Assembly (NCBI GenBank): GCA_030698395.1
Contig: JAUYKW010000008.1
Coordinates: 1,662 to 65,661 of the forward strand
Length of the DNA: 64,000 bases
Origin: a bacterium
Lineage (GTDB): Bacteria; Patescibacteriota; Patescibacteriia; UBA9570
Reading direction: 5' to 3'
Every line of letters begins with the position of its first letter. Position 1 is the stretch's first letter. The notes below the pieces were generated by a model. It saw only the letters and a program-made list of their open reading frames with translations. It was not told the origin of the DNA and made no database searches. Shown piece after piece: positions 8,635 to 50,495 of the stretch. Both the position numbers and the translations under genes were made by a program.

Positions 8635-9667
8635 TATGTCATCAGTTGATTCAGCTTCAGAAATTCAAATTCAAAAATTGTTATCAGCAGTTGCAGAGTA
8701 TAAAGCGACCGATTTACATTTGAGCGTGGGCAGTACCCCAGTTCTGAGGATGGGCGGAAAATTAGTGCCATTAACATCAGAGCCTTTGTTAACAAGTGAA
8801 TTTATTCAAACTGTAGCGTCATTGATGCTAACTCCAGAATTGAATGCAAAATTACAAGAACAGAAATCAATTTTATTTATTTATTATTCTAAATCAAAGG
8901 CCAGGTACAAGGTGCATATGTATTTTCAGGGTGGATTTATTTCTATTAGTTTAAGATTAATTCCGTCTTTAGCTACACCAATCAATGGATTGGAGTTGCC
9001 ACAAGAAGTTAAGAATCTAGTTCAGGTGGAATCTGGTATGATTATAGTTTGTGGACCGTATGGATCAGGAAAATCTACAATTTTAGCTGGTTTTATTGAG
9101 TATTATAATCAAAATCTTGGTAAGCATATAGTTACTTTTGAAAAACCTGTAGAATTCTTAATTAATGATAGTAAATCAATAGTTGAACAACGCGAGATAG
9201 GTAAAGATATTAATTCCATTAATCAAATATCAGAATTTGTTTCTACTGAGGATGTGGATATTGTGTTATTAGCAGATTTATTCAATCATGAAACTATGCA
9301 GGTGGCTTTTGATGCCGCTCGCATGGGTAAGTTGGTTTTAGTGGAAGCTAACACTGATAGTATTCGTGATACCCTGGAAAGTATTATTGGAATGTATAAA
9401 ATAGATGAACAACCTGCAATTATAGCCACAATGGTAAAATCTCTCAAAGCTATAGTAGCATTAGAAAGTCTACCAAATACATCTGGATCCGTGTCGATCG
9501 CGGCAGAGGTATTAGTGATGACGCCAAGCGTACAAGGCTTGTTACAGCAAGGAGCATTGGAGAAAGTTGATATGATTATTGAAGGAGGTAGAAATGAAGG
9601 AATGATTTCTATAAAAGAAGCAAAAGAGGCAATGGCGCAGGCAGGTATTATTAACTTACGTATGTAA
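8618..9667 (+). CDS. pilT: PilT-like twitching-motility/retraction ATPase.
   Basis: It has a Walker A motif (GPYGSGKSTILAG). At about 350 aa it matches the PilT/PilU size class. It lies between pilB and pilC. Confidence 0.7.
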   Translation: MQLFNSMSSVDSASEIQIQKLLSAVAEYKATDLHLSVGSTPVLRMGGKLVPLTSEPLLTSEFIQTVASLMLTPELNAKLQEQKSILFIYYSKSKARYKVHMYFQGGFISISLRLIPSLATPINGLELPQEVKNLVQVESGMIIVCGPYGSGKSTILAGFIEYYNQNLGKHIVTFEKPVEFLINDSKSIVEQREIGKDINSINQISEFVSTEDVDIVLLADLFNHETMQVAFDAARMGKLVLVEANTDSIRDTLESIIGMYKIDEQPAIIATMVKSLKAIVALESLPNTSGSVSIAAEVLVMTPSVQGLLQQGALEKVDMIIEGGRNEGMISIKEAKEAMAQAGIINLRM

Positions 9668-34894: not shown

Positions 34895-35584
34895 ATGAAC
34901 ATAGGAATTATAGGTGCTGGTAGATTTGGTAAGTTGCTCGCTGAACAATTGGAAAATGATAATAAAATTTTTCTTTTTGATAAGTTAGATGATAAAGATG
35001 AATTAGAGTCTTGTAATTTAGTTATTTATGCAGTACCAAATAGTTTATTGCAAGACGTAATAAATGAAACAAAAGAATTTATTCAATCAGATGCGATTGT
35101 AATGGATGTTGGTTCGGTTAAAATAAAACCATGTGCTGTGTTACAGGAAGCATTTGGAGAAAATATTTTAGGTACGCATCCGCTGTTTGGCCCAGATAGT
35201 GCTAGTGATTCTTGGGAGGGACATAAGATGGTTTTTTGCAAATTGAATATTCCTGATGATCAGTATAATAAAGTAAAAGAATTATTTATTAGCAGGGGAG
35301 TTAAAGCAATTGAATGTTCACCAGAGGAACATGATAAAATGATGGCTAAAACTCAAGCTTTAGTACACTACATTGGACGAGCACTTTCTGGAATTAAAGA
35401 GCAAGAAATATCTACGCCAGATTATGCAAATTTATTACGCATGATGGAGAAAGTTACTCATGATACTTGGGAATTATTTTATGACATGCAAAATTTGAAT
35501 CCGTATGCTAAATTAGAAAGAGAAAAGTTCAGTAAAAATATTGCTGAGTTAGAAGAAAAAATTAACCAAGAGTTAGATAAATAA
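34895..35584 (+). CDS. tyrA: Prephenate/arogenate dehydrogenase.
   Basis: The NAD(P) motif is IGIIGAGRFG. It is in aromatic-pathway context. Confidence 0.7.
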   Translation: MNIGIIGAGRFGKLLAEQLENDNKIFLFDKLDDKDELESCNLVIYAVPNSLLQDVINETKEFIQSDAIVMDVGSVKIKPCAVLQEAFGENILGTHPLFGPDSASDSWEGHKMVFCKLNIPDDQYNKVKELFISRGVKAIECSPEEHDKMMAKTQALVHYIGRALSGIKEQEISTPDYANLLRMMEKVTHDTWELFYDMQNLNPYAKLEREKFSKNIAELEEKINQELDK

Positions 35585-35587
35585 AGT

Positions 35588-35854
35588 ATGATCGAAAAAT
35601 CTTTAGAAGAATTAAGAGAGCAGATTGATAATATTGATGAAAAGATAATAAAATCAATTGGTGAAAGGTTTTTGGTTGTTGAGAAAATTGGAAAACTAAA
35701 GCAGGCGACTGGAATTCCAGTGCAAGATCCACACCGAGAAGCAAAATTATTATTGAAATTAAATACTTTAGCTCAGAAATATAACGTGTCCATTGAGGTA
35801 GTTACTCATATATATGACTATTTAATGCATCATTCCAGAGATAGCCAGCAGTAG
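35588..35854 (+). CDS. AroQ-class chorismate mutase.
   Basis: It is an 88-aa helical protein, with LEELREQIDNID...IGKLK typical of AroQ chorismate mutase. Confidence 0.8.
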   Translation: MIEKSLEELREQIDNIDEKIIKSIGERFLVVEKIGKLKQATGIPVQDPHREAKLLLKLNTLAQKYNVSIEVVTHIYDYLMHHSRDSQQ

Positions 35855-35871
35855 CATTATTAAAGAAAATT

Positions 35872-35900
35872 TTGACACTTTATAAAGTATAAATTATAAT
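35872..35900 (+). promoter_or_regulatory. Perfect consensus sigma70 promoter: TTGACA, 17 nt, TATAAT.
   Basis: The sequence is ttgaca-ctttataaagtataaat-tataat. Confidence 0.55.
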
Positions 35901-35906
35901 GTTCTT

Positions 35907-36095
35907 AAGTTTATGAATTTTATACACAGCAACAACTTATCTAAGCTTAAATGGACAGTGGTCTCTTCTATTAAGACACTGGTACGTATTTATTTACATA
36001 TAGCGCGGGCAAGGATAAGCAATGCAATTACATAAGTTGCATAATAAACAGAAAAGCTGCAACCTTAGCCCGCGAAAAAAACGCGGGATTTTTAT
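35907..36095 (+). ncRNA. Candidate ~190-nt small RNA or leader transcript, running from the consensus promoter to an intrinsic terminator. It contains a long imperfect stem (36003-36014 with 36063-36074) that competes with the terminator stem, and an optional 30-codon sORF.
   Basis: The promoter and terminator were read from the sequence, with no gene in between. It could not be matched to SRP RNA, 6S RNA, tmRNA or RNase P consensus motifs. Confidence 0.3.
36068..36095 (+). terminator. Intrinsic terminator: stem cccgcg / cgcggg, a 7-A loop, and a T-run.
   Basis: The sequence is gcccgcg-aaaaaaa-cgcggg-atttttat. Confidence 0.55.
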
Positions 36096-36230
36096 ATATT
36101 ATTTCTAGACTACTCGACTGGTATCCTCCGCACTAGTTGAGTCGCCTGGAAAGTAATTTCCAGATTATCGTTCTTTGTAAAGTATTTATCCCTATTTTTA
36201 GAAGTTATTCTGTTAATGGTGATAAAACAA

Positions 36231-36251
36231 TTTTAGAGGCAACGTGAAATT
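36231..36251 (+). repeat. Conserved leader box TTTTAGAGGCAACGTGAAATT, copy 1. Copy 2 is at 37283-37303, and a degenerate copy 3 is at about 37815-37835.
   Basis: Two copies are identical over 21 nt. Each lies upstream of a GC-rich ORF in the island. Confidence 0.6.
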
Positions 36252-36275
36252 AAATCTGGTTTAAAACGTAGCAGA

Positions 36276-36342
36276 GCGAGGAAAATGGTTTTTGTAGATA
36301 CGCGATTAATCGCGTATCTACGGATAAAAATATTTTCCTCGC
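36276..36342 (+). repeat. 67-nt inverted repeat. The outer arms are gcgaggaaaat / attttcctcgc. They enclose a perfect 28-bp palindrome, GTAGATACGCGATTAATCGCGTATCTAC (36294-36321).
   Basis: Read directly from the sequence. It lies about 80 nt upstream of the first GC-rich ORF. Confidence 0.7.
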
Positions 36343-36422
36343 TCCGGCTACCTAGTAGACCGGATTTCTCGGGTCATAGACCCATCCTCATACTCCTGCT
36401 GAAAAGCATGTGGAGATTCTCG

Positions 36423-37064
36423 ATGTCTGTTCGCCCTTCCAGTCCCTGCTCCAAGCTCGTCGTGCTCGCCGATGATGCTCCTGCCCTCTCCGTTCTCTGC
36501 GAGTTCATCGAGCCCAAGGCTATCGGTGGTCGCTGCATGTCCTTCGAAAGCACTCAGGTGCTGTTCTTCAACCGGAACAATCTGCAGGGCCTCGTGGCTC
36601 GGGTCGTGGTTCGGCGCACTGCTCGACCGCTCGGCGACAACATCGTATCTGTGCGCACGGTCGACGTGATCGTGGTGAACAGCGAAGATGATCTTCGACA
36701 CTACTTGCAGGACTCCCAGGTGTTGCATCTGCGCAGCACCGATCAGCGCCAGCCTGCCATGTACACCTTCACCCACAGCAAGATGTTCCCCAAGCCGCCC
36801 AGTGGTAGTGCTCACATCTGTCAGTTCGAGACTGGTCACCTGCAGAGTCACCTCCGGAACCTGGTGTCGGTTCTCTACTCGGGATGGTTCTCCCGCAAAC
36901 CGCAGGATGCCACGGTCTGCACGCCGAACAGCGCCATCGCCCAGATGTCTGGCTACATCGGACGTTCCACCCTGGCCTTCGAGGAAGGAGGTTATGGCGG
37001 AAGCGTGCAGTTCGGTCAGGACGACGCTTACGACGCGATCCGCGAGGACGGTTCTCGCTTGTAG
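36423..37064 (+). CDS. GC-rich (~60% GC) hypothetical protein of 213 aa, with strong G/C bias at codon third positions.
   Basis: The + frame has about 85% G/C at third positions with very few A, while all other frames look like wrong-frame GC-rich noise (R/P/S-rich). An SD (GGAGA) lies 8 nt upstream of the ATG at 36423. No known motifs were recognised. Confidence 0.5.
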   Translation: MSVRPSSPCSKLVVLADDAPALSVLCEFIEPKAIGGRCMSFESTQVLFFNRNNLQGLVARVVVRRTARPLGDNIVSVRTVDVIVVNSEDDLRHYLQDSQVLHLRSTDQRQPAMYTFTHSKMFPKPPSGSAHICQFETGHLQSHLRNLVSVLYSGWFSRKPQDATVCTPNSAIAQMSGYIGRSTLAFEEGGYGGSVQFGQDDAYDAIREDGSRL

Positions 37065-37080
37065 AAGAGCGAATAGAGGG

Positions 37081-37197
37081 CACGATTCGTCGTGGACAGT
37101 GATGGTAGACCGCATGACACCTCCTGTCGGGCTTCTTCTTTTCACGTTGCCCACCTCTCCTTTGTTTATCTATTAGCCCTTGCTAAATGGTAGAAAA
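37081..37197 (+). repeat. Conserved ~115-nt 3' trailer element, copy 1. H1 is CACGA-UUCG-UCGUG. H2 is gacag...ctgtc. H3 is gggc...gccc. Then follows ACCTCTCCTTTG and an AATGGTAGAAAA box.
   Basis: It is about 85% identical to 37633-37745, and a degenerate third copy is at about 38166-38240. Compensatory changes keep the stems intact: H2 is gacag/ctgtc in copy 1 and gacaa/ttgtc in copy 2; H3 is gggc/gccc in copies 1 and 2 and aggc/gcct in copy 3. Confidence 0.65.
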
Positions 37198-37320
37198 TAA
37201 GGTAAATAATGTAGTGGTAATAATTAGTCGTTCCTTTTATTTGTACTGGATGAATAACACTATTCTTTCAGTATTAACAGTATTTTAGAGGCAACGTGAA
37301 ATTCTAGCTGGTAATGTCCT

Positions 37321-37362
37321 AGGGTGAGGATATTGGTTTTATAACCAATGCCCCCACCCTGG
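37321..37362 (+). repeat. Conserved 5' leader stem-loop, copy 2: AGGGTG-AGGATATTGGTTTT-hairpin-ATGCCCCC-CACCCT. Copy 3 is at 37866-37919: TGTTGGGGT-AAGGATATGGGTTTTT-...-ATGCCCCC-ACCCCAACA.
   Basis: The closing stem differs in sequence but keeps its pairing in the two copies. A related AGGAAAATGGTTTTT motif sits in the 67-nt IR upstream of ORF1. Confidence 0.5.
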
Positions 37363-37620
37363 CTTACATTCGTAAAGCTGGAAATTGGGTTTCGACCCAC
37401 CCCTCAACCCCTCGAAAGGATCCTCCAGGTGGCTAAGAAAAAGCGGAAGAAGGAAGTTTGTAGAAGTGGTAGCAAGAAGATTCGTGTTGTGCAAATCAGC
37501 GATGCGGAACTTCGCAGGAGTACTATATCTGAGCTTTGTCGGAAGTATCATGGACGCATGGTCGTTGTTAACGGTCAGCGGTTCCTGATGACGAACGAAG
37601 AGCACAGCGAACACACCTGA
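37348..37620 (+). CDS. Small basic protein (63-90 aa depending on start), moderately GC-rich, a paralog of the 37933-38136 ORF.
   Basis: The ATG at 37348 lies inside the conserved noncoding ATGCCCCCACCC motif. A GTG at 37429 preceded by AAAGGA is a plausible alternative start. It shares ELCRKYHGRMVVVNG with EFCRRYNGQQVTIGS in the next ORF. Confidence 0.4.
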   Translation: MPPPWLTFVKLEIGFRPTPQPLERILQVAKKKRKKEVCRSGSKKIRVVQISDAELRRSTISELCRKYHGRMVVVNGQRFLMTNEEHSEHT

Positions 37621-37632
37621 GCAACCTGGGGT

Positions 37633-37745
37633 CACGATTCGTCGTGGACAATGATGATGGACTATTCGTCGTCACTTGTCGGGCTTCAACTCTTCACGTT
37701 GCCCACCTCTCCCTTGACTATTATCATTAAAAATGGTAGACAAAG
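37633..37745 (+). repeat. 3' trailer element, copy 2.
   Basis: See copy 1. The identical H1 hairpin cacgattcgtcgtg is present. Confidence 0.65.
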
Positions 37746-37932
37746 GATTGGTGAAAGTCATTCGTTCTTTATAACTAATGTGATGACTCACAATAATATT
37801 GTGATAGTTACTATTTTTTTCAGGCAATATGAATAGATCGTGGGCTAAACGTCCAAAAGGACTATGTTGGGGTAAGGATATGGGTTTTTCGATAAAAATC
37901 TATGCCCCCACCCCAACAAGTAAGGAGTGCTC

Positions 37933-38136
37933 ATGAATGCACCAGATGCTGAGCCCGGCGGTGTACGTGGCAGCGAGAGAGAGGTAGATCGAGACATGCA
38001 GAGATTTTCAGCGCGGGAGTTCTGCCGGCGTTACAATGGTCAGCAGGTCACTATCGGCTCCATGCGGATTCACATTCGCTACGAGCCCACTCCCTCGTTG
38101 CCGCGCGATCGGCCGGAGGCGCAGCTGTCCATCTAG
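37933..38136 (+). CDS. Small protein (67 aa) paralogous to the 37348-37620 ORF.
   Basis: A strong SD, AAGGAG, lies 5 nt upstream of the ATG at 37933. About 68% of third positions are G/C. The upstream ATGCCCCCACCCC motif is out of frame and terminated, so it is noncoding here. Confidence 0.45.
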   Translation: MNAPDAEPGGVRGSEREVDRDMQRFSAREFCRRYNGQQVTIGSMRIHIRYEPTPSLPRDRPEAQLSI

Positions 38137-38165
38137 GGCAGCGGAGGTTGTGGCTGGTGGTGCAG

Positions 38166-38240
38166 TCATAGACAAGATGGTAGGCTACGCCCCATCCTGT
38201 TAGGCTTACCGTTTTCATATTGCCTACCTCTCTTTTGATT
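38166..38240 (+). repeat. 3' trailer element, degenerate copy 3.
   Basis: It aligns to copies 1 and 2 over GATGGTAG...TCCTGT..GGCTT...TTTTCA..TTGCC.ACCTCTC.TTTG, with stem covariation. Confidence 0.5.
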
Positions 38241-38374
38241 AGCTAGTAAGCTAGTTGTTTAGAAGAGAGGTAAGTTTCAACAGGATCTTTCCCAAGTACG
38301 TTTAGTTGCACTAGCGACTTTGCGTCAACAGTTTTTTTGACAACGTCAGTTATGCACCTACCTAGCAGGAGGAG

Positions 38375-38467
38375 ATGGTAGGGAAGTTGCAGCAAGAGGT
38401 GCTGCAGGTGGGATTTTTCGTCTCCATCCCATTGGACAACCCGCTGACGTTGTCCCTTTCCTTATAA
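38375..38467 (+). CDS. Possible 30-codon sORF (MVGKLQQEVLQVGFFVSIPLDNPLTLSLSL) bracketed by an 11-nt inverted repeat (gacaacgtcag at 38338-38348, ctgacgttgtc at 38444-38454).
   Basis: An AGGAGG lies immediately upstream of the ATG. It is short and unsupported otherwise. Confidence 0.15.
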   Translation: MVGKLQQEVLQVGFFVSIPLDNPLTLSLSL

Positions 38468-38573
38468 ATATCATTTGTTGGTACTTATAAGGATTTGGAT
38501 AATTGTGAATAAGTTAAATAATATAAGTTGACTTATTAAAAAAATAATATATTCTTTATTTTAAGAAGTATTT

Positions 38574-38663
38574 ATGAATATTCTTTTTGCCCAAATAAAT
38601 CTTATTAGCATTATTAGCCTGCTTATTAGCCATGGTTCTTTGCGTTATGAACAAACTTAAGTA
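38574..38663 (+). CDS. Possible 29-aa hydrophobic peptide (MNILFAQINLISIISLLISHGSCVMNKLK), followed by a terminator.
   Basis: It is a short ORF in host-like AT-rich composition. An intrinsic terminator lies 25 nt downstream. No clear SD was seen. Confidence 0.2.
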
Positions 38664-38684
38664 AAAAAGTAATTCAAACGTAAA

Positions 38685-38713
38685 GAACCCTGTCAAATAT
38701 CGCAGGGTTTTTT
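38685..38713 (+). terminator. Intrinsic terminator: aaccctg-tcaaatatcg-cagggtt-ttttttt.
   Basis: Read from the sequence. Confidence 0.55.
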
Positions 38714-38811
38714 TATTGCCTCATTAATTTCTCCTTTAACAGGGGATGAGAACCGTACGGCGGTAGGAGGAGTCTATCGTTCTTCCTGTACGCTTCGGCA
38801 ACGAGGATACA

Positions 38812-39036
38812 ATGTACCGGCGCGGTACCTGGGAGTTTTATCAGTTCAACGCCGTGTTTCACGCTGAGCTGGTCAGGTGTTCGAATGGCATCGTGGCGCT
38901 GATGTGGCGCAACGAGGTGCACAAGACCGGTGCCAACGAAGTGACCATTGCGTACCGACGGTTCGAGCGTCAGCAGTGGAGCTTCTGGGCTCATTCGGCC
39001 ACAGGAGGCACCTGTGACACGTCCGCGGTCTACTAG
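38812..39036 (+). CDS. GC-rich hypothetical protein (74 aa) with high G/C at third positions.
   Basis: About 78% of third positions are G/C. A GGAGG lies about 45 nt upstream and the proximal SD is weak (GAGGAT). It is flanked by an inverted repeat: gcgagacggcgg (39083-39094) and ccgtcgtctcg (39137-39147). Confidence 0.35.
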   Translation: MYRRGTWEFYQFNAVFHAELVRCSNGIVALMWRNEVHKTGANEVTIAYRRFERQQWSFWAHSATGGTCDTSAVY

Positions 39037-39231
39037 CAGCTCCGAGAGCGTTGCTACGCCTGACGCAAATACGGAATCTCACGCGAGACGGCGGCATGGG
39101 TTGACTAGATGTATTTATGTACGTCTTGCTATCACCAGCCGTCGTCTCGACCGTTCATCTTATTTATTGTTTAATTTGCTCTAAGAAATAAAATCATTTA
39201 TACTCATTAAAGTTAAGTTAAAGGATATATC

Positions 39232-41829
39232 ATGCAAAATTCTTTCGAACAATTACAAAATTACCTTGCTAAAAATCCAGATTTAGTTGCAGAAACTACG
39301 CGGCGGAAGCGAACATTAGTTTACATCGCTGGAATGTCTTTGGATCAAGAGGAGCTTGCTAAGGTACGAGGTATTGAGTTTTACGAAGAACGTTTATTAT
39401 ACGTTGTTGGCTTATTACGAGATCCAAACACTAAGATTGTTTTTGTATCCTCAAAGCAAATTGATCCAGTTATTATTGATTATTATTTTGATTTATTTAG
39501 TAGATCTCAGAAAGAGCGGATTAGCATGGAGAAAAGATGGCATCATTTTTATATTGGTAATAGTAGAATTCATAAAACTTTAACTCAAAAAGTTTTAACA
39601 TCAAAACGGTTGGTTATTCAAATTAATCAGCAAATTGATAATACTAAGCAAGCTGTATTACGGTGTTTTAATTCGTCTGAAGATGAAAAAGCCCTAGCAG
39701 TTAAATTAAATATTCCTTTATATGCTCCAGATCCTAAATTTTTACATTATGGATCGAAATCCGGAGCTCGTCAGGTGTTCAAGCAAGCAGGTTTAAAACC
39801 ACCATATGGAGTAGAAAATATTACCTCAATGTTGGAGTTGATTAACTCAATTAGAAAAATTAAACAGCATGAGAAGGGGGTTGAACAAGTTGTTGTAAAA
39901 TTTGATTACAGCTTTTCTGGAGTAGGTAATGCTAATTTGACGGTAAGCAAATTTCCACGTACAAATGTAGCTGCCGAGAAGTACATTAAAACTCATCTTA
40001 AACCAAATGAATCAGATGTTACTGCGATTCAGTATTTAAAAAAGTTATTTGATATTGGTGGAATTGTTGAAACGTGGTTACAAGGAATACGAATCTTTTC
40101 ACCAAGTGTTCAGTTAGCAATAGATCCAGATAAGAGTGTCCGGATTATTTCTAGTCATGAGCAGTTGCTTGATGAAGAAACAAAACAAGTTTTTTTAGGA
40201 GCTAGATTTCCGGCTCGTAAATCGATGAGACAACCTTTGTTACTACAGGCAGAAAAGGTGGGAAAAGAATTAGCTGATGCAGGAGTGATTGGATTTTTTG
40301 GAATAGATTTTATTGCTGTGAAAGAGAAAACAAAATATGTTGCGTATCCTATTGAAATAAATTTGCGCAAAGGTGGAGCAACACATCCTTTTCAGATAGC
40401 TAGAATGTTAACGCAAGGTAGCTATAAAAAAGATGGAGCTATGCGTGATGATTCACGACAGAGGATTGCATATTATTCTTTTGATAACATTAAATCTACA
40501 GATTACGTTGGTTTGAAGCCTGAGGAAATTATTAAAATAGTTAAGCAAGCAGGGCTAGAATTTGATCATGAAAATAATGGTGGAGTTTCTTTACACTTGT
40601 TAGGAAGCTTAAAAAAATATGGAAAATTTGGTACAGTTTGTATTGCACGTTCACCACGAGCAGCTGAGCAATTATTTATCATTTTAACTAAGGTTGTTGA
40701 TGCGTATGTGGCACGAAAATCAGAAATTGAAATTGTTACACCTCAAGTAGTTTCTGTAAATCAAAAGAGATTGGTTGATACTTTTATAAAATTAGTTAAG
40801 ATTGCTAGTCCTTCAGGAGAAGAAGCAAAAATTAGATTATTGCTTAGAGAAGAATTAGTGAGATTGGGCGTAAAAACAAGAGTTGATAAGTCAGGAAATT
40901 TAATCGGTAAAAAACCAGGTGTAGGTACCGTACCGTTTTTGTTATCAGCACATATGGATACTGTAAAACCATGTGAAAATGTTAATCCCGTAATTAGGGG
41001 AAATACTATCATGACAGATGGCACTACTATATTGGGCGCAGACAACAAGGCTGGAATTGTATATATTTTGGAGCTACTGCGATTATTGCATGAATTTGAT
41101 ATTAAACATCGGCCATTAGAAATAGTAATGTCTGTCTGTGAAGAACAGTTTTCGGGTGGAGCAGACGAACTTGATGTTTCTAAATTAAAATCTCCAGTTG
41201 GTCTGGTTGTGGATGGTGCTGATTTAGGGGAGGTTGATTATATTTCACCTTATATAGCAACCATTAATGTATCTGTTATTGGTAAAGCTGCTCATTCTGG
41301 AGTAGAGCCAGAAAATGGTGTAAGTGCGATTCAGATAGCATCTAACGCTATTGCAAATATGCCATTAGGAAGACTTGATCATGATACGACTGCAAATATT
41401 GGCTTAATTACTGGTGGGACTAATAGAAATGCAATTCCAGATCGAGTAGAATTAGAAGGAGAAGTACGAAGTTTAACAAAACGATATTTAGAAGAACAGT
41501 TAGAGCGAATGCATAAGGCTTTAGAAGATGCTGCTGAGTTATATGGCGGGTTACTTGATATTTCTAGTAAGATAGCTGTTCAAGGTTACAAATTTTCCAA
41601 AAATGATCCTGATTTAAAGAAGATTATGCAGATTATGAAAGAAGTAGACATTAAACCAGATTTAAGGAAAGCTGGGGGTGGTTCAGATGCGAATGTATTT
41701 GTTGCTAGAGGCATAAAAACTATTGATGTTGGGACAGGTGTACAGAAGCCACATACTGTTGAAGAGAGTATAAAAATAGACGACATGACGAAGATGGTAG
41801 AATTTTTATTAAAGATTGTCCAAGTTTAG
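39232..41829 (+). CDS. Two-domain protein: an N-terminal ATP-grasp-type ligase domain fused to a C-terminal M20-family metallopeptidase domain (peptidase T/ArgE/DapE-like).
   Basis: The ATP-grasp signatures are VVVKFDYSFSGVGN (compare VxxKP..GSxGxGV) and GIDFIAV...YPIEINLRKGG (compare EVNxxPG). The M20 signatures are SAHMDTV, GADNKAG and IGKAAHSG. Confidence 0.55.
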   Translation: MQNSFEQLQNYLAKNPDLVAETTRRKRTLVYIAGMSLDQEELAKVRGIEFYEERLLYVVGLLRDPNTKIVFVSSKQIDPVIIDYYFDLFSRSQKERISMEKRWHHFYIGNSRIHKTLTQKVLTSKRLVIQINQQIDNTKQAVLRCFNSSEDEKALAVKLNIPLYAPDPKFLHYGSKSGARQVFKQAGLKPPYGVENITSMLELINSIRKIKQHEKGVEQVVVKFDYSFSGVGNANLTVSKFPRTNVAAEKYIKTHLKPNESDVTAIQYLKKLFDIGGIVETWLQGIRIFSPSVQLAIDPDKSVRIISSHEQLLDEETKQVFLGARFPARKSMRQPLLLQAEKVGKELADAGVIGFFGIDFIAVKEKTKYVAYPIEINLRKGGATHPFQIARMLTQGSYKKDGAMRDDSRQRIAYYSFDNIKSTDYVGLKPEEIIKIVKQAGLEFDHENNGGVSLHLLGSLKKYGKFGTVCIARSPRAAEQLFIILTKVVDAYVARKSEIEIVTPQVVSVNQKRLVDTFIKLVKIASPSGEEAKIRLLLREELVRLGVKTRVDKSGNLIGKKPGVGTVPFLLSAHMDTVKPCENVNPVIRGNTIMTDGTTILGADNKAGIVYILELLRLLHEFDIKHRPLEIVMSVCEEQFSGGADELDVSKLKSPVGLVVDGADLGEVDYISPYIATINVSVIGKAAHSGVEPENGVSAIQIASNAIANMPLGRLDHDTTANIGLITGGTNRNAIPDRVELEGEVRSLTKRYLEEQLERMHKALEDAAELYGGLLDISSKIAVQGYKFSKNDPDLKKIMQIMKEVDIKPDLRKAGGGSDANVFVARGIKTIDVGTGVQKPHTVEESIKIDDMTKMVEFLLKIVQV

Positions 41830-42214
41830 CGAAAAAAGTGTCAATTTATTTGGTGTATAAATTGTGACTATTTTGGATTGAAAAGAACCTCTTTTTTTGC
41901 TATACTTGTAATACCCTGTTCCGTACCTTAAACAACTTTCGACAAACGATTCTCATCAGGGAGTTTTACATTCATGATAGTCGGTGAACTCAAAAAAGGT
42001 ATTGATAATAAATGTTGATACAATTGAGTATCTAAGAATATCAGATGCGAACACCCACTTAAAATCAGAGGGGAGTTGAAAAAGTGATGAAACAGGGCAA
42101 AAAAATATCCTATAAATATGGGGTATTTTTTTATTTATTAAAGTTTTTTATGGCTAGCGTGAATAACGACTTTTCGTTATACTAAGCACGTAAAAATATT
42201 AATATTCAATAATC

Positions 42215-43390
42215 ATGACAGATAAAATACCGGCATTAACCCTAGATCTCGAACAAGACGGTTGGCAAACATCCAAAGGCTTTATTAAACGCGATGTTGA
42301 TATGCCGGTTTTGGATGAAGCTGTTAATAGCAGTGATGCTTTATCAGTGATAGTTAAAATTCAATACGCTGGAATGTGTGGATCGGATAGAGGAATATGG
42401 AACCGAACGGCGTTTTCAGATATGTTTAAGGAATCTCTTGTAGCTGAAACAAAAAGTCTCAGAATTTTGGGTCATGAATTTGTTGGTGAGGTAGTATCTG
42501 CAGGCTCCCAAGTAGAAAATTTATATGGTATTAAAGTAGGTGAACCGGTATCTGGAGATTCGCATGTAACATGTGGTCGGTGTTTTCAGTGTCGCGTTGG
42601 TGAGCAGGAAGTATGTCAGGATCAGGCAATTTTAGGAATCAGCATTGATGGAATATTTGCTCATTATGTAAAAATTCCTGCAAAGAATTTATGGGTAGTA
42701 GATAATGATAGAGTAAGGCCAGAAGTTTGTGCTTTATACGATCCATTTGGAAATGCAGTGCACTCATTATCTAAAACAGATGTGCGAGGAGCTCGAGTTG
42801 CGGTGTTTGGTTGTGGACAAATTGGAATGTTTTCAATACTTTTGGCTCGTCAATTTGGAGCAGCTAAGGTTATTGGCATAGATGTAAATCAAGCGAATTT
42901 AGATATAGCTAAAGAACTAGGTGCTCATGAAACTATTTTGATTGAAAAATCAGACAAGAAAAATGATTACGATGTGGATCGGAATGTTGTTGATGAAATA
43001 ATGGAATTAACGTATGGCAAGGGAGTTGATGTGAGCTTGGAAATGGCAGGATTCAATTCTTCTGTGAATAATGCAATTGCGTCTACTAGATTTGGTGGTG
43101 ATGTAATTTTATTTGGCATAAAAGATGGCGAATTCATGATTCCGGATTTTTCTAAAATGATTGTAAAAGGAATTACCTTACATAATGTGATTGGCCGACA
43201 GATATTTCAAACCTGGCAAACTGCACAACGCGTGTTATCGGATTCTACTAATGGAGTACAAGAAAAGATATGGAAAACTATTCTTAAGGGTGGTAACGAT
43301 ACTATTATCAAGTTATCTGAGTTCTCTCCAGAAGACATGGAGAAGAAGATGGCGGCTCATCCAAAATTAATTTTTGATATTCAAAATTAA
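42215..43390 (+). CDS. tdh: Zn-dependent medium-chain dehydrogenase, probably L-threonine 3-dehydrogenase.
   Basis: It has the zinc-ADH fold with a Rossmann motif (VAVFGCGQIG) and a GHE catalytic zinc motif. It lies immediately upstream of kbl. Confidence 0.7.
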   Translation: MTDKIPALTLDLEQDGWQTSKGFIKRDVDMPVLDEAVNSSDALSVIVKIQYAGMCGSDRGIWNRTAFSDMFKESLVAETKSLRILGHEFVGEVVSAGSQVENLYGIKVGEPVSGDSHVTCGRCFQCRVGEQEVCQDQAILGISIDGIFAHYVKIPAKNLWVVDNDRVRPEVCALYDPFGNAVHSLSKTDVRGARVAVFGCGQIGMFSILLARQFGAAKVIGIDVNQANLDIAKELGAHETILIEKSDKKNDYDVDRNVVDEIMELTYGKGVDVSLEMAGFNSSVNNAIASTRFGGDVILFGIKDGEFMIPDFSKMIVKGITLHNVIGRQIFQTWQTAQRVLSDSTNGVQEKIWKTILKGGNDTIIKLSEFSPEDMEKKMAAHPKLIFDIQN

Positions 43391-46853: not shown

Positions 46854-47318
46854 ATGCGCGGAAAACAAGCACCAAAAAGAGATATTAATCCAGATCCTGT
46901 TTATAACAGCACTACAGTTGCTAAATTTATTAATTACATAATGTTACATGGCAAGAAGACTGTAGCTCAGTCTGTTGTTTATGATGCATTTGATTTTATC
47001 GAGAAGAAAACTGGTGAGCAAGGATTAGATGTATTTGATAAAGCAGTACATAATGTAACACCAACTGTAGAAGTAAAGGCTCGTAGAATAGGTGGAGCTA
47101 ACTATCAAGTACCAATCGAAGTAAGAACTAGTCGTAGATTCACTTTAGCGTCTCGTTGGTTGATTACAGCAGCTCGAGCTCGCAAAGGTAAACCAATGCA
47201 TCAGAAATTAGCTTTAGAGCTTATGGAAGCCGCTGAGAACACTGGAGATGCAGTAAAGAAAAAGCAGGATGTTCATAGAATGGCTGAATCTAATAGAGCA
47301 TTTGCACATTTTGCGTAA
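46854..47318 (+). CDS. rpsG: 30S ribosomal protein S7.
   Basis: S7 signature residues are present. Length is 154 aa. Confidence 0.95.
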   Translation: MRGKQAPKRDINPDPVYNSTTVAKFINYIMLHGKKTVAQSVVYDAFDFIEKKTGEQGLDVFDKAVHNVTPTVEVKARRIGGANYQVPIEVRTSRRFTLASRWLITAARARKGKPMHQKLALELMEAAENTGDAVKKKQDVHRMAESNRAFAHFA

Positions 47319-47350
47319 GAAACTCTTTTAAACACGAAATTTACATATTA

Positions 47351-47375
47351 ACAGGGCTGGAAAGCCCTGTTTTGT
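47351..47375 (+). terminator. Intrinsic terminator after rpsG: acagggct-ggaa-agccctgt-tttt.
   Basis: Read from the sequence. Confidence 0.6.
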
Positions 47376-47430
47376 TATCTATTCATTATTTTGCTATAAT
47401 TAGACTATTAATATTTAAGTGGATTCATAA

Positions 47431-47868
47431 ATGTATATGAAGAAAAATCTTACAAGAGGCTTGGCAGTTTTGGCAGGATTTGCTTTGCCAGCACTAGCAT
47501 CAGCCCAAAATTTTAACTATGATTATGGTTATGATGATTATTACTACGATGATTACGGGACTAGCACCGGATCAGCTGCACTTGGAGTTGGTATTCTAAT
47601 ATTTATTGGAATCATGGGTCTTATCAGTTTAGTTGCATTAGCCTTTGTTATTTGGATGATCGTAGATGCAGCAAAACGAGATTTCGATCAGAAAGTACTA
47701 TGGATTCTACTAATGGTATTTATTGGATTTATTCCTGCTGTAATTTACTATTTCATGATCAAGAGAAAGAATGTAACTGGATCTGGAAAACCAGCAGCTA
47801 CAGTGCCACAAGCCACACCTGAGACACCTGCAGCAGAACCACCAAAACCTCAAGAACCACAACAATAA
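47431..47868 (+). CDS. Small membrane protein with a PLDc_N-like motif (IWMIVDAAKRDF...W..LM.F..P..IYYF.IKRK), an N-terminal signal and a DYGYDDYYYDDYG segment.
   Basis: It shares a motif with the adjacent paralog 47880-48260. It has 2 TM helices. Confidence 0.5.
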   Translation: MYMKKNLTRGLAVLAGFALPALASAQNFNYDYGYDDYYYDDYGTSTGSAALGVGILIFIGIMGLISLVALAFVIWMIVDAAKRDFDQKVLWILLMVFIGFIPAVIYYFMIKRKNVTGSGKPAATVPQATPETPAAEPPKPQEPQQ

Positions 47869-47879
47869 ATAATTATTCA

Positions 47880-48260
47880 ATGATTATAAAAAAATCATTA
47901 TCAAAAGTGGCGCGTATTATCGCGCCTCTATTGGTATTGTCATACCCTTTAAGTGTTTTTGCGGCCTCTGATGATGAGACTTGGGCAATTTTTGGCTTTC
48001 TTTTAATGATGATTCTGATATTCATGATCGTGGGAACGATATTGTTATCAGTGATGGCTATGTATGGATTCACTATTTGGATGATCGTAGATGCAGTTCA
48101 GCGTGATTTTGAACAACAGATGGTTTGGTTGGTTTTAATGCTAGTGTTCTTACTGTTTTTTCCATTTGTTGGTTTTGCAATTGCGTTTGTTTATTATTTT
48201 GCAGTGAGACGGAAGGATTTAGGAACGAAGAAGGACTCTCAATCAAAAAAGAGTAAATAA
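47880..48260 (+). CDS. Small membrane protein, a paralog of 47431-47868 (PLDc_N-like).
   Basis: It carries IWMIVDAVQRDFEQQMVWLVLMLVF...FAIAFVYYFAVRRK. Confidence 0.5.
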   Translation: MIIKKSLSKVARIIAPLLVLSYPLSVFAASDDETWAIFGFLLMMILIFMIVGTILLSVMAMYGFTIWMIVDAVQRDFEQQMVWLVLMLVFLLFFPFVGFAIAFVYYFAVRRKDLGTKKDSQSKKSK

Positions 48261-48307
48261 TAAATTTACCTCTTTACAAGCTAAATTGTATCCGTTATTA
48301 TACAGCA

Positions 48308-48330
48308 GTCTCAGTGATGAGACATTTTTT
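48308..48330 (+). terminator. Intrinsic terminator: gtctca-gtga-tgagac-atttttt.
   Basis: Read from the sequence. Confidence 0.55.
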
Positions 48331-48359
48331 CGCTAATGAATTAACAATAATATTAGGTA

Positions 48360-50495
48360 ATGTCAAATACTGAATTTAATCTCAAGAATGTGCGTAATAT
48401 CGGAATCATTGCACATATTGATGCTGGTAAAACAACTACTACTGAGCGTGTTTTGTTTTATACTGGAAAAAAACATAAGATTGGTGAAGTTCATGAAGGT
48501 GAAGCAGAAATGGATTGGATGGAACAGGAACAAGAGCGTGGTATTACAATTACATCTGCGGCAACAACAGCATTTTGGAAATTACCAGAATTTTTAGGTG
48601 GCGGTGAAGCGTGGATAAATATTATTGATACTCCAGGTCATGTAGATTTTACTGCAGAAGTAGAGCGTTCTCTGCGTGTTTTAGATGGAGGAGTTGTGGT
48701 ATTTGATGGAGTAGCTGGAGTGGAGCCACAATCAGAAACAGTTTGGCATCAAGCAGAAAAGTATAAGGTGCCAAGAATTTGTTTCATTAATAAGTTAGAT
48801 AGAACAGGTGCTGATTTTTATAAAGATGTTGATTCTATCCACGATCGTTTAACTAAACTTGCATTTCCAATTCAATTACCAATTGGAACTGAAGAAAACT
48901 TTAGTGGAGTAGTGGATTTAATCGAACAAAAGGCATTTATATATAAAGATGATTTAGGACAAGATATTGAAGAAGTCGAAATTCCAGAGGACATGAAGGA
49001 GAAAGCAGCAGAATATCGTAGTGCAATGCTTGATGCTGTAGTTGAACAGGATGAAGAGTTAATGAATTCATATTTAGATGGCACGGAGCCAACTCCAGAT
49101 CAGATTAGAGTAATGATGCGTAAAGGTGTGATTGCAAATGAATTCATTCCTATTATGTGTGGTACTGCTTTAAAGAATAAAGGAGTACAGCGTTTATTAG
49201 ATGCTGTAACGGCATTTTTACCATCTCCTTTAGATTTACCAGATGTTAGTGGTCATGATTATAAAGATGAAGAAAAAGAGCTTTCTTTTTCAGCTGATGC
49301 ATCTGGACCTTTGGCTGCTTTAGCATTTAAAGTTGCAACTGACCCGTTTGTGGGTAAATTAATTTTTGTGCGAGTGTATTCTGGTACATTAAAATCTGGA
49401 TCATATGTGTTTAATGCTACTACAGGTAAGAAAGAAAGAATTTCTAGAATTGTTCGTATGCACGCAAATAGCCGTGATGAGATTGATGAAATTCGAGCTG
49501 GAGACATTGCAGCAGTAGTAGGATTAAAGGAAACAGTTACTGCAGATACTTTGTGTGAACCAGAGAATCCAGTTATTCTTGAAAAGATTGTATTTCCAGA
49601 ACCAGTAATTTCGGTCGCTATTGAACCAAAAACTAAGTCAGATCAAGAAAAAATGTCAATTGCTTTACAGAAGCTTGGTGAAGAGGATCCCACCTTTAAG
49701 GTGGAGTCTAATGAGGAAACAGGGCAAACCTTAATTTCTGGAATGGGTGAGTTGCATTTAGAAATTCTAGTAGAACGCATGAAGCGTGAATTTACCGTAG
49801 AAGCAAATGTTGGAGCACCGCAGGTTGCATATCGTGAAACTATTAAAAAGATGGCTGACGCCGAAGGTAAGTACATTAAACAGTCTGGTGGACGTGGTCA
49901 GTATGGTCATTGCTTCTTAACTATCGAGCCATTAACCGATGAAGATAGAGGTGAAGATACAGATATGACATTTATGTTTATAGACAAGGTTAAGGGTGGT
50001 CGGATTCCAAAAGAATTTATTGGTCCGATTCAAAAAGGTGCACGCGAAGCTATGGATAAAGGTGTGTTAGCAGGATATCCATTATTGAATGTTAAAGTAA
50101 CAGTTACTGATGGTAGTTATCATGATGTGGATTCTTCGGAAATTGCATTTAAGATGGCTGGAATAATGGCATTTAAATCAGCTGTACAAAAGGCTGATGC
50201 TGTAATTCTAGAACCAGTTATGAAAACTAGCGTTATTACTCCAGAGGATTATATGGGTGATGTAGTTGGTGATTTGAACTCAAAACGTGGCCAGATTTTA
50301 GAGATGGGTGATCGCGGAAAAGCGAAGGTTATTGAAGCATTGGTGCCTTTAGCAGAAATGTTTGGTTATTCTACTTCACTGCGTTCCATGACCCAGGGTA
50401 GAGCATCTTATTCTATGCAGTTTGAGAAGTATGATGAGGTACCAAGAAATATTATGCAAGAATTAATGGAGAAACACACTACTGGAGATAAGTAA
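48360..50495 (+). CDS. fusA: Elongation factor G.
   Basis: G1 is [10 protein letters not shown]3 is DTPGHVDF. Length is 711 aa. Confidence 0.95.

What the first reader, a model, noticed from the sequence alone, without database searches (positions are those of the whole stretch)
36423..39036. High-GC3 codon usage of island ORFs 1 and 4 in a ~35% GC genome: recent horizontal acquisition from a high-GC donor
ORF 36423-37064 has about 85% G/C at third codon positions and almost no A-ending codons. ORF 38812-39036 has about 78%. The neighbouring host genes are strongly A/T-ending. Such codon usage is typical of Actinobacteria-like donors.

The window otherwise carries CPR-type hallmarks (no L30, extended r-proteins). 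Some CPR lineages such as Saccharibacteria live as epibionts on high-GC Actinobacteria. Host-to-epibiont gene transfer is therefore an attractive but unproven explanation.

The ORF1 product (213 aa, begins MSVRPSSPCSKLVVLADDAPALSVLCEFIEP...) has no motif I can place.
Basis: partly seen in the sequence, partly recalled or inferred. Interest (0 to 1): 0.6.

Follow-up and report, generated by a model that had tools for sequence, protein, structure and literature searches.

The report
GC-rich gene cassettes in Patescibacteria
The two GC-rich ORFs are real genes carried in a tandem array of small cassettes whose ends base-pair, and related AT-rich Patescibacteria hold the same kind of array with different genes at the same site, so the high GC belongs to an apparently undescribed cassette system and does not mark one recent gene transfer from Actinobacteria.

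Summary
The observation largely holds. ORF1 (36423-37064) has GC3 0.75, not the ~0.85 claimed. ORF4 (38812-39036) has 0.77. A-ending codons are 5% in both, against host GC3 of 0.21-0.29, and the bias is frame-specific.

The 3.3-kb island is a tandem array of five modules. Each has a 5' core (GGCAAYRTGAA), an SD-containing hairpin, a GC-rich cargo ORF, a structured 3' UTR, a complementary 3' core (TTCAYRTTGCC) and a pyrimidine-rich hairpin. The 5'/3' pairing covaries across eight modules from five contigs (8 of 12 pairs change on both sides).

Three related Patescibacteria genomes carry the same kind of GC-rich cassettes, with unrelated cargo, upstream of the same gene; two of them share the full gene junction. 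ORF1's only four homologues among 1.84 billion cluster representatives sit in the same cassette context. No hit points to a high-GC organism. Orthologous GC-rich genes elsewhere in two relatives keep GC3 0.73-0.80 although housekeeping proteins are only 67-79% identical.

An independent assembly confirms the junctions. Integron (attC), transposon (target duplication), Rfam, phage and plasmid tests are negative. Cargo function and the mode of turnover remain unknown.

The parts
35872..36095 (+). Leader unit ahead of the array: perfect sigma-70-type promoter (35872-35900), near-leaderless 40-aa ORF (35913-36035) and a canonical terminator (36069-36095).
   Evidence: 12/12 promoter match; terminator; the same promoter, small ORF and terminator precede the arrays in L047, L048 and L049.
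36231..37215 (+). Module A. 5' core 36238-36249; 5' hairpin 36274-36344 (holds GAGGAAAATG and the inner palindrome GTAGATACGCG/CGCGTATCTAC, 36294-36321); cargo ORF1 36423-37064; UUCG hairpin 37081-37094; 3' core 37140-37151; pyrimidine motif CACCTCTCC plus AT-rich tail to 37215.
36423..37064 (+). ORF1, 213 aa. Cargo of module A and a member of a very rare protein family (motifs LVvLaDD, EF..P...GgRC, YTFT..M.P.P, CQ, SVLy). The core of residues ~7-160 is predicted to be an alpha/beta fold; the C-terminal 50 residues are window-specific and predicted disordered.
   Evidence: period-3 signal; homologues; alignment A3; AF2 pLDDT 63, pTM 0.61; no specific fold match.
36348..37154 (-). Antisense 268-aa ORF, codon-aligned with ORF1. 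I read it as a by-product of avoiding A-ending codons (no TTA, CTA or TCA in the sense frame) and not as a gene.
   Evidence: antisense GC3 0.59 against 0.75 for the sense frame; sense-strand homology is far stronger; another gene caller annotated this ORF instead of ORF1.
37283..37760 (+). Module B. 5' core 37290-37300; SD-containing hairpin 37322-37359; possible leader ORF from ATT 37332 to 37436; cargo ORF2 (GTG 37429, or ATG 37348, to 37620); UUCG hairpin 37632-37647; 3' core 37693-37703; terminal hairpin 37704-37753.
   Evidence: MFE closes the module, z -5.19.
37815..38275 (+). Module C. 5' core 37823-37834 (GGCAATATGAAT); hairpin 37865-37918; 18-aa leader ORF 37880-37936 whose TGA overlaps the ATG of cargo ORF3 (37933-38136) as ATGA; 3' core 38213-38224 (ATTCATATTGCC); terminal hairpin 38225-38272.
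   Evidence: I2, I7; z -7.04.
38339..38454 (+). Mini-module E. Closing stem GACAACGTCAG / CTGACGTTGTC around 94 nt, with no sizeable ORF. Possibly a cassette that has lost its cargo.
38528..38716 (+). Second leader-like unit inside the array: promoter-like site 38528-38555, 28-aa hydrophobic ORF 38574-38660 with host-like AT-rich codons, terminator 38688-38716.
   Evidence: promoter-like site, 9/12; sequence read directly.
38717..39160 (+). Module D, with diverged ends. MFE closing helix about 38748-38760 with 39070-39082; C(UUCG)G loop just upstream of the SD; cargo ORF4 38812-39036 (74 aa); GC-rich 3' hairpin about 39084-39150.
   Evidence: (z -2.6). ORF4 has no match in Pfam, PHROGs, PADLOC, phages or plasmids.

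Best explanation
ORF1 and ORF4 are the protein-coding cargo of two units in a tandem array of five self-contained cassettes. The array lies between the chorismate mutase gene and an ATP-grasp/M20 fusion gene of a Patescibacteria genome.

Shown: each cassette has conserved, host-like AT-rich ends and a GC-rich interior. The order is a 5' core, a hairpin whose 5' arm is a Shine-Dalgarno-like GAGGA facing a C-rich arm, the cargo ORF with its own canonical SD, a structured GC-rich 3' UTR, a 3' core complementary to the 5' core, and a pyrimidine-rich (anti-SD-like) CACCTCTCC motif that starts a further hairpin. The site is a conserved hot spot: related genomes carry the same architecture with unrelated cargo. 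High GC is a standing property of the cargo class, not the trace of one recent transfer.

Inferred mechanism: each cassette is expressed as a tightly folded mRNA. The 5'-3' closing helix, the SD-sequestering hairpin and the 3' anti-SD motif keep it stable and translationally closed. Expression would then depend on read-through of the upstream terminators and on processing or refolding, as in hok-type and AapA1-type mRNAs. The conserved ends also serve as homology or recognition sequences through which cargo is exchanged.

Why the cargo stays GC-rich is not settled. Candidates are a common GC-rich pool with fast turnover, or selection for stable, promoter-poor, tightly shut-off genes.
For: Coding: frame-specific GC3 and A3 bias; ORF1 family with conserved motifs; a confident predicted core fold; canonical SDs 5-9 nt upstream of every cargo start.

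Modular architecture: repeated 5' and 3' elements.

Closing helix: every module's MFE is closed by it, with z -5.2 and -7.0. Across 8 modules from 5 contigs, 94.8% of cells are paired, 8 of 12 pairs change on both sides, 0 of 500 shuffles reach this, and slid registers pair only 34-54%.

GC-rich domain: it begins and ends at the cores, averaging 0.32 outside, 0.57 inside and 0.34 outside.

RNA-level signs: UUCG-capped hairpins are 4 on the coding strand against 0.7 expected and 1 on the other strand. The SD arm of the 5' hairpin keeps conserved A.C mismatches instead of forming a perfect palindrome (sequences). In L049 the 3' CTTCCTCTCAT motif is complementary to the cargo's own SD region 661 nt upstream.

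Lineage property: L047 and L048 share the chorismate mutase / fusion-gene junction and hold GC-rich cassettes there; L049 holds them upstream of the same fusion gene with different upstream neighbours. Cargo GC3 is 0.65-0.87 and unrelated between genomes. Other ORF1-family members carry the same cores. Island-2 orthologues keep GC3 0.73-0.80 at 51-56% identity while housekeeping proteins are 67-79% identical with GC3 0.24-0.37.

Not an artefact: a Logan contig is 100% identical over 7,733 bp across both junctions.
Against: No expression data exist: transcript ends, processing and any antisense RNA are inferred.

All covariation in the closing helix is Watson-Crick to Watson-Crick, with essentially no G.U intermediates. 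A DNA-level inverted repeat would give the same pattern. Two of the eight modules were found by eye for complementarity, which is an ascertainment bias.

Inside the coding sequences, structure does not exceed codon-shuffled controls for ORF1, ORF4 or the ORF1 family (z -1 to +0.7). Only two L048 cargos reach z about -5. Selection for specific mRNA folds therefore does not explain the GC-richness.

Leader-ORF coupling is clear only in window modules B and C. Cargo proteins are soluble-looking and up to 213 aa, unlike classical type I toxins. No mobilising enzyme was identified. The island-2 argument could also be met by independent insertion of related elements at the same site.
Confidence: 0.45

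Rival explanations
1. DNA-level mobile cassettes. The 11-14-bp perfect inverted repeats (GGCAACGTGAA ... TTCACGTTGCC) are terminal inverted repeats or recombinase sites. The modules would be non-autonomous passenger-carrying elements (like mobile insertion cassettes) or invertible segments, moved in trans by an enzyme encoded elsewhere. The RNA features would be secondary.
For: Strictly Watson-Crick covariation with no G.U intermediates. The repeats start with GG and end with CC, as many IS ends do (my knowledge). Cargo differs completely between relatives while the ends persist. Ends are homogenised within a genome: A and B share identical 20- and 21-mers, and both L043 modules share the same 3' end. 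The GC-rich domain stops at the cores.
Against: No target-site duplication at any of the 8 modules. Conservation runs well beyond the repeats on both sides, in the spacer box, the CACCTCTCC hairpin, about 55 nt of 5' UTR and about 90 nt of 3' UTR. No transposase, integrase or RT family is among the called genes within +/-10 kb in three syntenic relatives, or among the window proteins scanned. All modules have the same orientation. No dispersed copies were seen in the 64-kb window.
Confidence: 0.25
2. One reading: ORF1 and ORF4 were recently acquired from a high-GC (Actinobacteria-like) organism, for example the host of an epibiotic CPR cell, and have not yet ameliorated.
For: GC1/2/3 of 0.61/0.44/0.75, and an amino-acid usage rich in Arg, Ala and Gly and poor in Lys, Asn and Ile, look like a normal gene from a roughly 60% GC genome (plus my knowledge). 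Cargo turnover between relatives is fast, so individual cassettes may be young. The host is plausibly Patescibacteria.
Against: No homologue was found in any named or high-GC organism among 1.84 billion cluster representatives or 5.8 billion sequences, or in phages or plasmids. All four ORF1 homologues lie in the same cassette context and are only 24-42% identical to each other, so the family has diverged for a long time within cassettes. Every cargo gene in four genomes is GC-rich, which is not a random sample of donors. Island-2 orthologues stay GC-rich across deep divergence. GC3 of 0.65-0.87 is lower than I would expect for typical Actinobacteria (my knowledge).
Confidence: 0.12
3. Local GC-biased gene conversion or another regional mutational bias at a recombination hot spot raises GC in the cassettes, with no selective meaning and no foreign origin.
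For: The locus is hypervariable and presumably recombines often. The rise is strongest at third positions.
Against: GC switches sharply at the cores, and the spacers between cassettes remain AT-rich at 0.25-0.40. First positions and amino-acid usage are shifted too. As far as I know, the effect sizes reported for bacteria are far smaller than a GC3 change from 0.25 to 0.80. Island 2 is conserved, not hypervariable, yet is equally GC-rich.
Confidence: 0.08
4. Artefact or non-coding reading: a chimeric assembly, or a GC-rich structured RNA (such as rRNA, an intron or a large ncRNA) whose ORFs are accidental.
For: Overlapping ORFs on both strands and GC-richness in an AT-rich genome are typical of structural RNA genes. 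Whole modules fold far better than shuffles.
Against: No Rfam family at gathering or relaxed thresholds and no tRNA or tmRNA. The codon bias is frame-specific. There are protein-level homologues with conserved motifs. An independent assembly is identical across both junctions. Host-like AT-rich spacers and repeated ends lie inside the island.
Confidence: 0.03

Closest known systems
Integron gene-cassette arrays and CALINs (clusters of attC sites lacking an integrase)
   Same: Tandem, same-orientation array of small, mostly orphan ORFs at one chromosomal site. Contents differ completely between related genomes. The repeated ends are similar within a genome and more diverged between genomes, as with the VCRs of sedentary chromosomal integrons. 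The complementary halves belong to the same cassette.
   Different: No attC-type site (RYYYAAC ... GTTRRRY, 45-150 nt apart) on either strand, even with a relaxed pattern. The complementary halves enclose the ORF (116-914 nt apart) instead of forming a compact 60-140-nt site after it. No IntI is nearby. The conserved ends include UTR-like features: an SD hairpin, UUCG loops and an anti-SD motif. Cargo is uniformly GC-rich relative to the host.
hok/mok/sok and AapA1/IsoA1-type (type I toxin-antitoxin) mRNAs
   Same: Small ORFs lie in highly folded mRNAs whose 5' and 3' ends pair over a long distance (the fbi/tac type of lock). The SD is sequestered in a hairpin. An upstream reading frame overlaps the start of the main ORF (modules B and C). 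The units occur as tandem repeats. The properties of the known systems are from my own knowledge.
   Different: Cargo proteins are unrelated to one another, not hydrophobic and up to 213 aa. No antisense RNA gene was demonstrated; there are only weak minus-strand promoter-like sites inside ORF2. The cargo is compositionally foreign. There is no sequence similarity to any known type I system (Rfam and PADLOC negative).
Mobile insertion cassettes (MICs), MITEs and other TIR-bounded non-autonomous elements
   Same: Perfect 11-14-bp inverted repeats flank passenger genes, and no transposase lies inside.
   Different: No target-site duplications. Conservation extends outside the repeats. Copies are clustered at one conserved site and not dispersed. 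No cognate IS or transposase was seen.
rRNA-operon and phage early-mRNA processing stems (RNase III substrates)
   Same: Each GC-rich unit of a possibly polycistronic transcript is looped out by pairing of its 5' and 3' flanks, downstream of a strong promoter.
   Different: The looped-out units are mRNAs with SDs, not stable RNAs. RNase III cleavage is purely hypothetical here.

Membership tests
Integron cassette / CALIN | attC site after each ORF: R'' RYYYAAC and R' GTTRRRY, complementary, about 57-141 nt apart | tested here: not met
   strict (up to 1 mismatch) and relaxed (....AAC / GTT...., perfect 7-mer) scans of both strands of the five islands found none. The cores read GTT...AAC across spacers, which is the wrong order. 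This was my own regex, not IntegronFinder's covariance model.
Integron cassette / CALIN | IntI tyrosine recombinase with attI and Pc at the head of the array (not required for a CALIN) | tested here: not met
   No integrase family among called genes within +/-10 kb in L047-L050. The window neighbours are pheA, tyrA, chorismate mutase and the ATP-grasp/M20 fusion. Not every window ORF was scanned.
Transposon / MIC / MITE | Terminal inverted repeats | tested here: met
   Complementary cores of 11-14 bp at both ends of 8 modules.
Transposon / MIC / MITE | Target-site duplication abutting the repeats, and conservation that ends at the repeats | tested here: not met
   no direct repeat longer than 3 nt at any module. 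The flanks outside the repeats are themselves conserved.
Transposon / MIC / MITE | Cognate transposase in the genome; dispersed copies | not testable with these tools
   Only 64 kb of the genome is available. There is no copy outside the island in the window, and no transposase among the scanned neighbours.
Type I toxin-antitoxin (hok-like or AapA-like) | Long-distance 5'-3' pairing and SD sequestration in the toxin mRNA | tested here: met
   Predicted only. MFE folds and covariation; SD-like arm within the 5' hairpin.
Type I toxin-antitoxin (hok-like or AapA-like) | Small (<60 aa) hydrophobic toxin | tested here: not met
   Cargo is 63-213 aa, charged and soluble-looking. The only hydrophobic peptide, 38574-38660, lies outside the modules.
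Type I toxin-antitoxin (hok-like or AapA-like) | Antisense or divergent antitoxin RNA | tested here: inconclusive
   Only weak (9/12) minus-strand promoter-like sites inside ORF2. No expression data.
Known structured RNA families (rRNA, introns, large ncRNAs, riboswitches) | Match to an Rfam covariance model | tested here: not met
   nothing at gathering thresholds. The best relaxed hits have E >= 3.2.
Recent HGT from Actinobacteria-like donor | Closest homologues in high-GC donor genomes | tested here: not met
   the only homologues are four cassette-borne environmental proteins, and none carries a name. ORF4 could be searched only against Pfam, PHROGs, PADLOC, phages and plasmids, not the large protein collections.
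REP / REPIN elements | GTAG-headed palindromes dispersed through intergenic regions, with a RAYT transposase | tested here: not met
   GTAGAKACGC palindromes occur only inside the islands in the sequence available. No RAYT was seen.

The most novel reading that the evidence does not exclude
Patescibacteria of this lineage maintain a previously undescribed kind of gene-cassette platform. It is a conserved chromosomal site, headed by a small leader gene, that collects interchangeable GC-rich ORFs. Each ORF is packaged between covarying complementary ends as a self-closing, translationally locked RNA. The platform works without integron-type attC sites or integrase and without transposon hallmarks. 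The uniformly GC-rich coding style would be an intrinsic requirement of the system. It might serve stability and tight silencing of conditionally expressed effector, immunity or toxin genes. More speculatively, it might be adapted to expression in, or exchange with, a GC-rich partner organism.
Probability: 0.3. Interest if true: 0.8.

Novelty: new variant of a known kind. Interest (0 to 1): 0.62.

Why it matters
Patescibacteria (CPR) are abundant, mostly uncultured and reduced, and little is known about how they gain and control accessory functions. This locus suggests a dedicated, conserved site where small genes are swapped in and out, packaged in a common RNA or DNA frame. It resembles an integron in outcome but apparently not in mechanism.

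It also shows that a strong compositional anomaly, normally read as recent horizontal transfer, can be a long-lived feature of a gene class. That matters for HGT inference by codon usage.

There are practical consequences. Gene callers disagree on these cassettes: one called the antisense ORF, and ORF2 and ORF4 were not called at all in a 15-billion-protein collection. Their cargo is therefore largely missing from protein databases. The covarying cores give a search handle for finding such arrays.

Tried and rejected
1. An rRNA, tRNA, intron or large ncRNA reading was my first guess from the GC profile and two-strand ORFs. Rfam at gathering and relaxed thresholds and ARAGORN were negative.

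2. DNA-pattern scans for the 3' element gave only seed-only chance hits in genome contigs and viral contigs (checked by BLAST) and nothing in metagenome contigs. These patterns required ACCTCTC and would have missed L043-type ends (GCCTTTC). The source genome itself was not recovered. These negatives are therefore weak. A corrected pattern found nothing in viral contigs.

3. A synteny scan of JGI metagenomes with the neighbour protein found nothing. The large protein collection then supplied the relatives.

4. Phage or plasmid origin: no tblastn or blastn match for ORF1, ORF4, the inter-module region or the island-2 protein.

5. Integron attC and transposon target duplications: absent.

6. A T-arm-like GGGTTCGATTCCCC in L047 module 1 suggested a tRNA or tmRNA integration site. 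ARAGORN and Rfam found none.

7. GTAG-headed palindromes as dispersed REPs: they are confined to the islands.

8. Selection for mRNA structure inside the coding sequences as the cause of GC-richness: synonymous-codon shuffles give z about 0 for ORF1, ORF4 and the ORF1 family.

9. Leader-ORF translational coupling as a general rule: it holds only in window modules B and C.

11. Literature searches found no description of such arrays.

Full report
**The observation**

The window averages about 35% GC. The only strong departure is 36.3-39.15 kb.

| ORF | Coordinates | GC1/2/3 | A-ending codons |
|---|---|---|---|
| ORF1 | 36423-37064 | 0.61/0.44/0.75 | 5% |
| ORF4 | 38812-39036 | 0.52/0.48/0.77 | 5% |
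| Five flanking host genes | - | GC3 0.21-0.29 | 37-39% |

The bias is confined to one reading frame, so it is a coding signal and not a property of the DNA as such.

**What it is not**

My first hypothesis was a structural RNA gene, because the stretch is GC-rich in an AT-rich genome and has ORFs on both strands. Rfam finds nothing at gathering thresholds, and only E >= 3.2 noise at relaxed ones. ARAGORN finds no tRNA or tmRNA in the whole window.

A chimeric assembly is excluded as far as sequence allows. An independent Logan contig from run SRR13727534 is 100% identical to window 35525-43257, spanning the island and both host junctions. It may derive from the same reads as the MAG.

**Anatomy**

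The island is five modules, not four ORFs. Modules A (ORF1), B (ORF2) and C (ORF3) share two elements:
- a 5' element, TTTTAGA-GGCAAYRTGAA
- a 3' element of about 100 nt ending in TTCAYRTTGCC-CACCTCTCC, followed by a hairpin

The two cores are complementary, and every module's minimum-energy fold is closed by them. The z-scores against dinucleotide shuffles are -5.2 (B) and -7.0 (C).

Between the cores, in order:
- A hairpin whose 5' arm is GAGGAWAT(N)TGG (an SD plus a start codon) facing a C-rich arm.
- The cargo ORF with its own SD.
- A GC-rich 3' UTR with a UUCG-capped hairpin.

A 116-nt mini-module E (38339-38454) has the same closing stem without a sizeable ORF. Module D (ORF4) has diverged ends but also folds closed.

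GC rises from 0.32 outside the 5' core to 0.57 inside, and falls to 0.34 after the 3' core.

Ahead of the array lies a perfect promoter, a near-leaderless 40-aa ORF and a canonical terminator (35872-36095). A second such unit, with a 28-aa hydrophobic ORF, precedes module D.

**Relatives of ORF1**

The word-indexed search of 5.8 billion proteins returned only the protein itself, annotated in an NCBI MAG labelled 'bacterium'. The exhaustive HMMER search of 1.84 billion cluster representatives found four homologues, with E from 2.5e-11 to 1e-6 and 32-39% identity. They share clear motifs.

All four are singletons on contigs of 0.9-2.2 kb. Their genes are also GC-rich (GC3 0.69-0.86). L043 has AT-rich flanks throughout, and L044 and L046 have AT-richer 5' flanks.

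- **L043:** two tandem modules, each with the 3' core followed by the same CGCCTTTCTGTG end; the second module also has the 5' core AAAAGGCAACGTGAAAT (the first module's 5' end is cut off by the contig start). The cargo of the two modules is unrelated.
- **L044 and L046:** the 5' core follows a terminator.
- **L045:** keeps the hairpin motif only.

The family thus lives inside this type of cassette. No member comes from a named or high-GC organism. Phage and plasmid collections give nothing.

**The same site in related genomes**

The downstream ATP-grasp/M20 fusion has full-length orthologues at 50-66% identity, and some are labelled Patescibacteria.

| Locus | Position of the island | Content |
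|---|---|---|
| L047 | gap between chorismate mutase and the fusion gene | GC-rich blocks; closing stem present |
| L048 | gap between chorismate mutase and the fusion gene | GC-rich blocks, up to 76% GC per 100 nt; closing stems present |
| L049/L050 | upstream of the fusion gene, with different upstream neighbours | GC-rich blocks; cores diverged, pyrimidine/purine hairpins kept |

The plus-strand ORFs there have GC3 0.65-0.87 and A3 0.02-0.17. They are unrelated to one another and to ORF1-4. L047 and L048 show no nucleotide similarity across the island.

The leader promoter, small ORF and terminator are conserved. So is the closing-stem architecture, with different sequence:
- GGTAACGTAAT / ATTACGTTACC
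- GGACAACGGT / ACCGTTGTCC
- GGCAACGTGAT / ATCACGTTGCC

On eight register-matched modules, 94.8% of cells pair and 8 of 12 pairs change on both sides. No shuffle out of 500 reaches this, and slid registers pair only 34-54%.

**Is the high GC recent?**

L047 and L048 share a second GC-rich island at the same position. It holds a minus-strand gene and a large gene with a class III cyclase domain.

| Gene set, L047 vs L048 | Protein identity | GC3 |
|---|---|---|
| Housekeeping | 67-79% | 0.24-0.37 |
| Island-2 orthologues | 51-56% | 0.73-0.80 |

At that divergence synonymous sites are saturated. The GC-richness is therefore either maintained, or re-imported repeatedly from related GC-rich sources into the same site. 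Maintenance is the more economical reading.

Together with the ORF1 family, which has diverged to 24-42% identity inside cassettes, this argues against a single recent transfer that has not yet ameliorated. Nothing points to Actinobacteria.

**RNA or DNA?**

Several features favour function in RNA:
- Every cargo ORF has a canonical SD.
- The SD-like arm of the 5' hairpin keeps A.C mismatches at the same places in several modules, which a DNA palindrome would not need.
- UUCG-capped hairpins are enriched on the coding strand: 4 against 0.7 expected, and 1 on the other strand.
- In module C an 18-codon leader ORF ends in ATGA on the cargo start, and in module B a leader frame ends 7 nt inside ORF2.
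- In L049 the 3' pyrimidine motif is complementary to the cargo's own SD region and, alternatively, to a local hairpin arm.

Other results point away from a purely RNA reading, or leave it open:
- All closing-stem covariation is Watson-Crick to Watson-Crick, as expected of a DNA inverted repeat.
- Coding sequences are generally no more structured than codon-shuffled versions.

The DNA-level models also fail their own tests. There is no attC-type site and no target-site duplication. No recombinase, transposase or RT lies within 10 kb in three relatives. Conservation extends beyond the repeats.

I therefore favour self-closing, translationally guarded mRNA cassettes whose conserved ends also mediate cargo exchange. 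I keep a DNA-level mobile-cassette model as a serious rival.

**Comparison with known systems**

- **Integrons and CALINs.** In outcome the locus resembles an integron cassette array, but it lacks attC sites and IntI.
- **Type I toxin mRNAs.** In RNA design it resembles hok-type and AapA1-type mRNAs. It lacks a small hydrophobic toxin, and no antisense RNA has been shown.
- **Mobile insertion cassettes.** In its ends it resembles these elements, but it lacks target duplications and dispersed copies.

Literature searches found no description of it.

**Verdict**

The ORFs are genes. The 'recent transfer from an Actinobacteria-like donor' reading is not supported. What is there is a conserved, hypervariable array of GC-rich cassettes with covarying complementary ends in a Patescibacteria lineage. 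It appears to be undescribed, and its mechanism is only partly resolved.

Noticed in passing
window 35872-36095; also L047 8316-8550, L048 7505-7728, L049 about 8490-8645: A perfect sigma-70 promoter (TTGACA-17-TATAAT) drives a near-leaderless 19-44-aa ORF ended by a canonical terminator. The unit is conserved in position directly ahead of the cassette array in all four genomes. The peptide sequence is poorly conserved. It could be a leader or attenuator for the array, or an independent small gene.
   Followed up: partly
window 38528-38716: A promoter-like site, a 28-aa hydrophobic ORF (MNILFAQINLISIISLLISHGSLRYEQT, host-like AT-rich codons) and a terminator sit inside the array, just ahead of module D. 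This is the only membrane-peptide-like product in the island.
   Followed up: no
window 36348-37154 (minus strand): A 268-aa antisense ORF is exactly codon-aligned with ORF1. It stays open because A-ending sense codons are avoided. The gene caller behind the Logan contig annotated this ORF instead of ORF1. In L048 the only genes called in the island are minus-strand ORFs. ORF2 and ORF4 are absent from a 15-billion-protein collection.
   Followed up: partly
L047 14301-17100; L048 14251-17000: A second, larger GC-rich island (GC3 0.73-0.80) lies downstream of the fusion gene and an aminotransferase in two relatives. It holds a minus-strand 137/142-aa gene and a 482+164 / 637-aa protein with a class III nucleotide cyclase domain that weakly resembles Pycsar cyclase. 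The window has no counterpart. A CACCTCT...AGAGGTG hairpin marks its edge in L047.
   Followed up: partly
L049 18751-19500; window 47318-48360: L049 has a GC-rich 244-aa ORF with a lipoprotein-like N-terminus between the S7 and EF-G genes. The equivalent 1-kb gap in the window has no ORF of 150 aa or more and is not GC-rich.
   Followed up: no
window 36294-36321; L044 284-310; L048 7832-7860, 8449-8476, 9103-9127: A GTAG-headed palindrome (GTAGAGACGC-loop-GCGTCTCTAC; GTAGATACGCG in the window) recurs at hairpin tips inside the cassettes of three unrelated contigs, and nowhere else in the sequence available. It may be a protein-binding hairpin.
   Followed up: partly
whole window: Every ORF of 150 aa or more is on the plus strand, with GC skew about +0.25, and there is no tRNA gene in 64 kb. 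The genome encodes a full shikimate, Phe and Tyr pathway (aroA-aroK fusion, aroC, pheA, tyrA, chorismate mutase), and the relatives also encode Trp synthase. That is more biosynthesis than I would expect for Patescibacteria. GC-skew dips at 4-5 kb and 11-12 kb were not examined.
   Followed up: no
window 39232-41829: The downstream neighbour is a fusion of a PGM1-like ATP-grasp peptide ligase with an M20 peptidase. The fusion seems restricted to this lineage: non-fused homologues of about 520 aa are widespread at about 39% identity.
   Followed up: no
window 36172, 37230, 37762, 38775: A conserved box (A/T)TCGTTCYTT lies 60-66 nt upstream of the 5' core of modules A, B and C, and inside the 5' region of D. 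It could be part of a promoter or a binding site.
   Followed up: no
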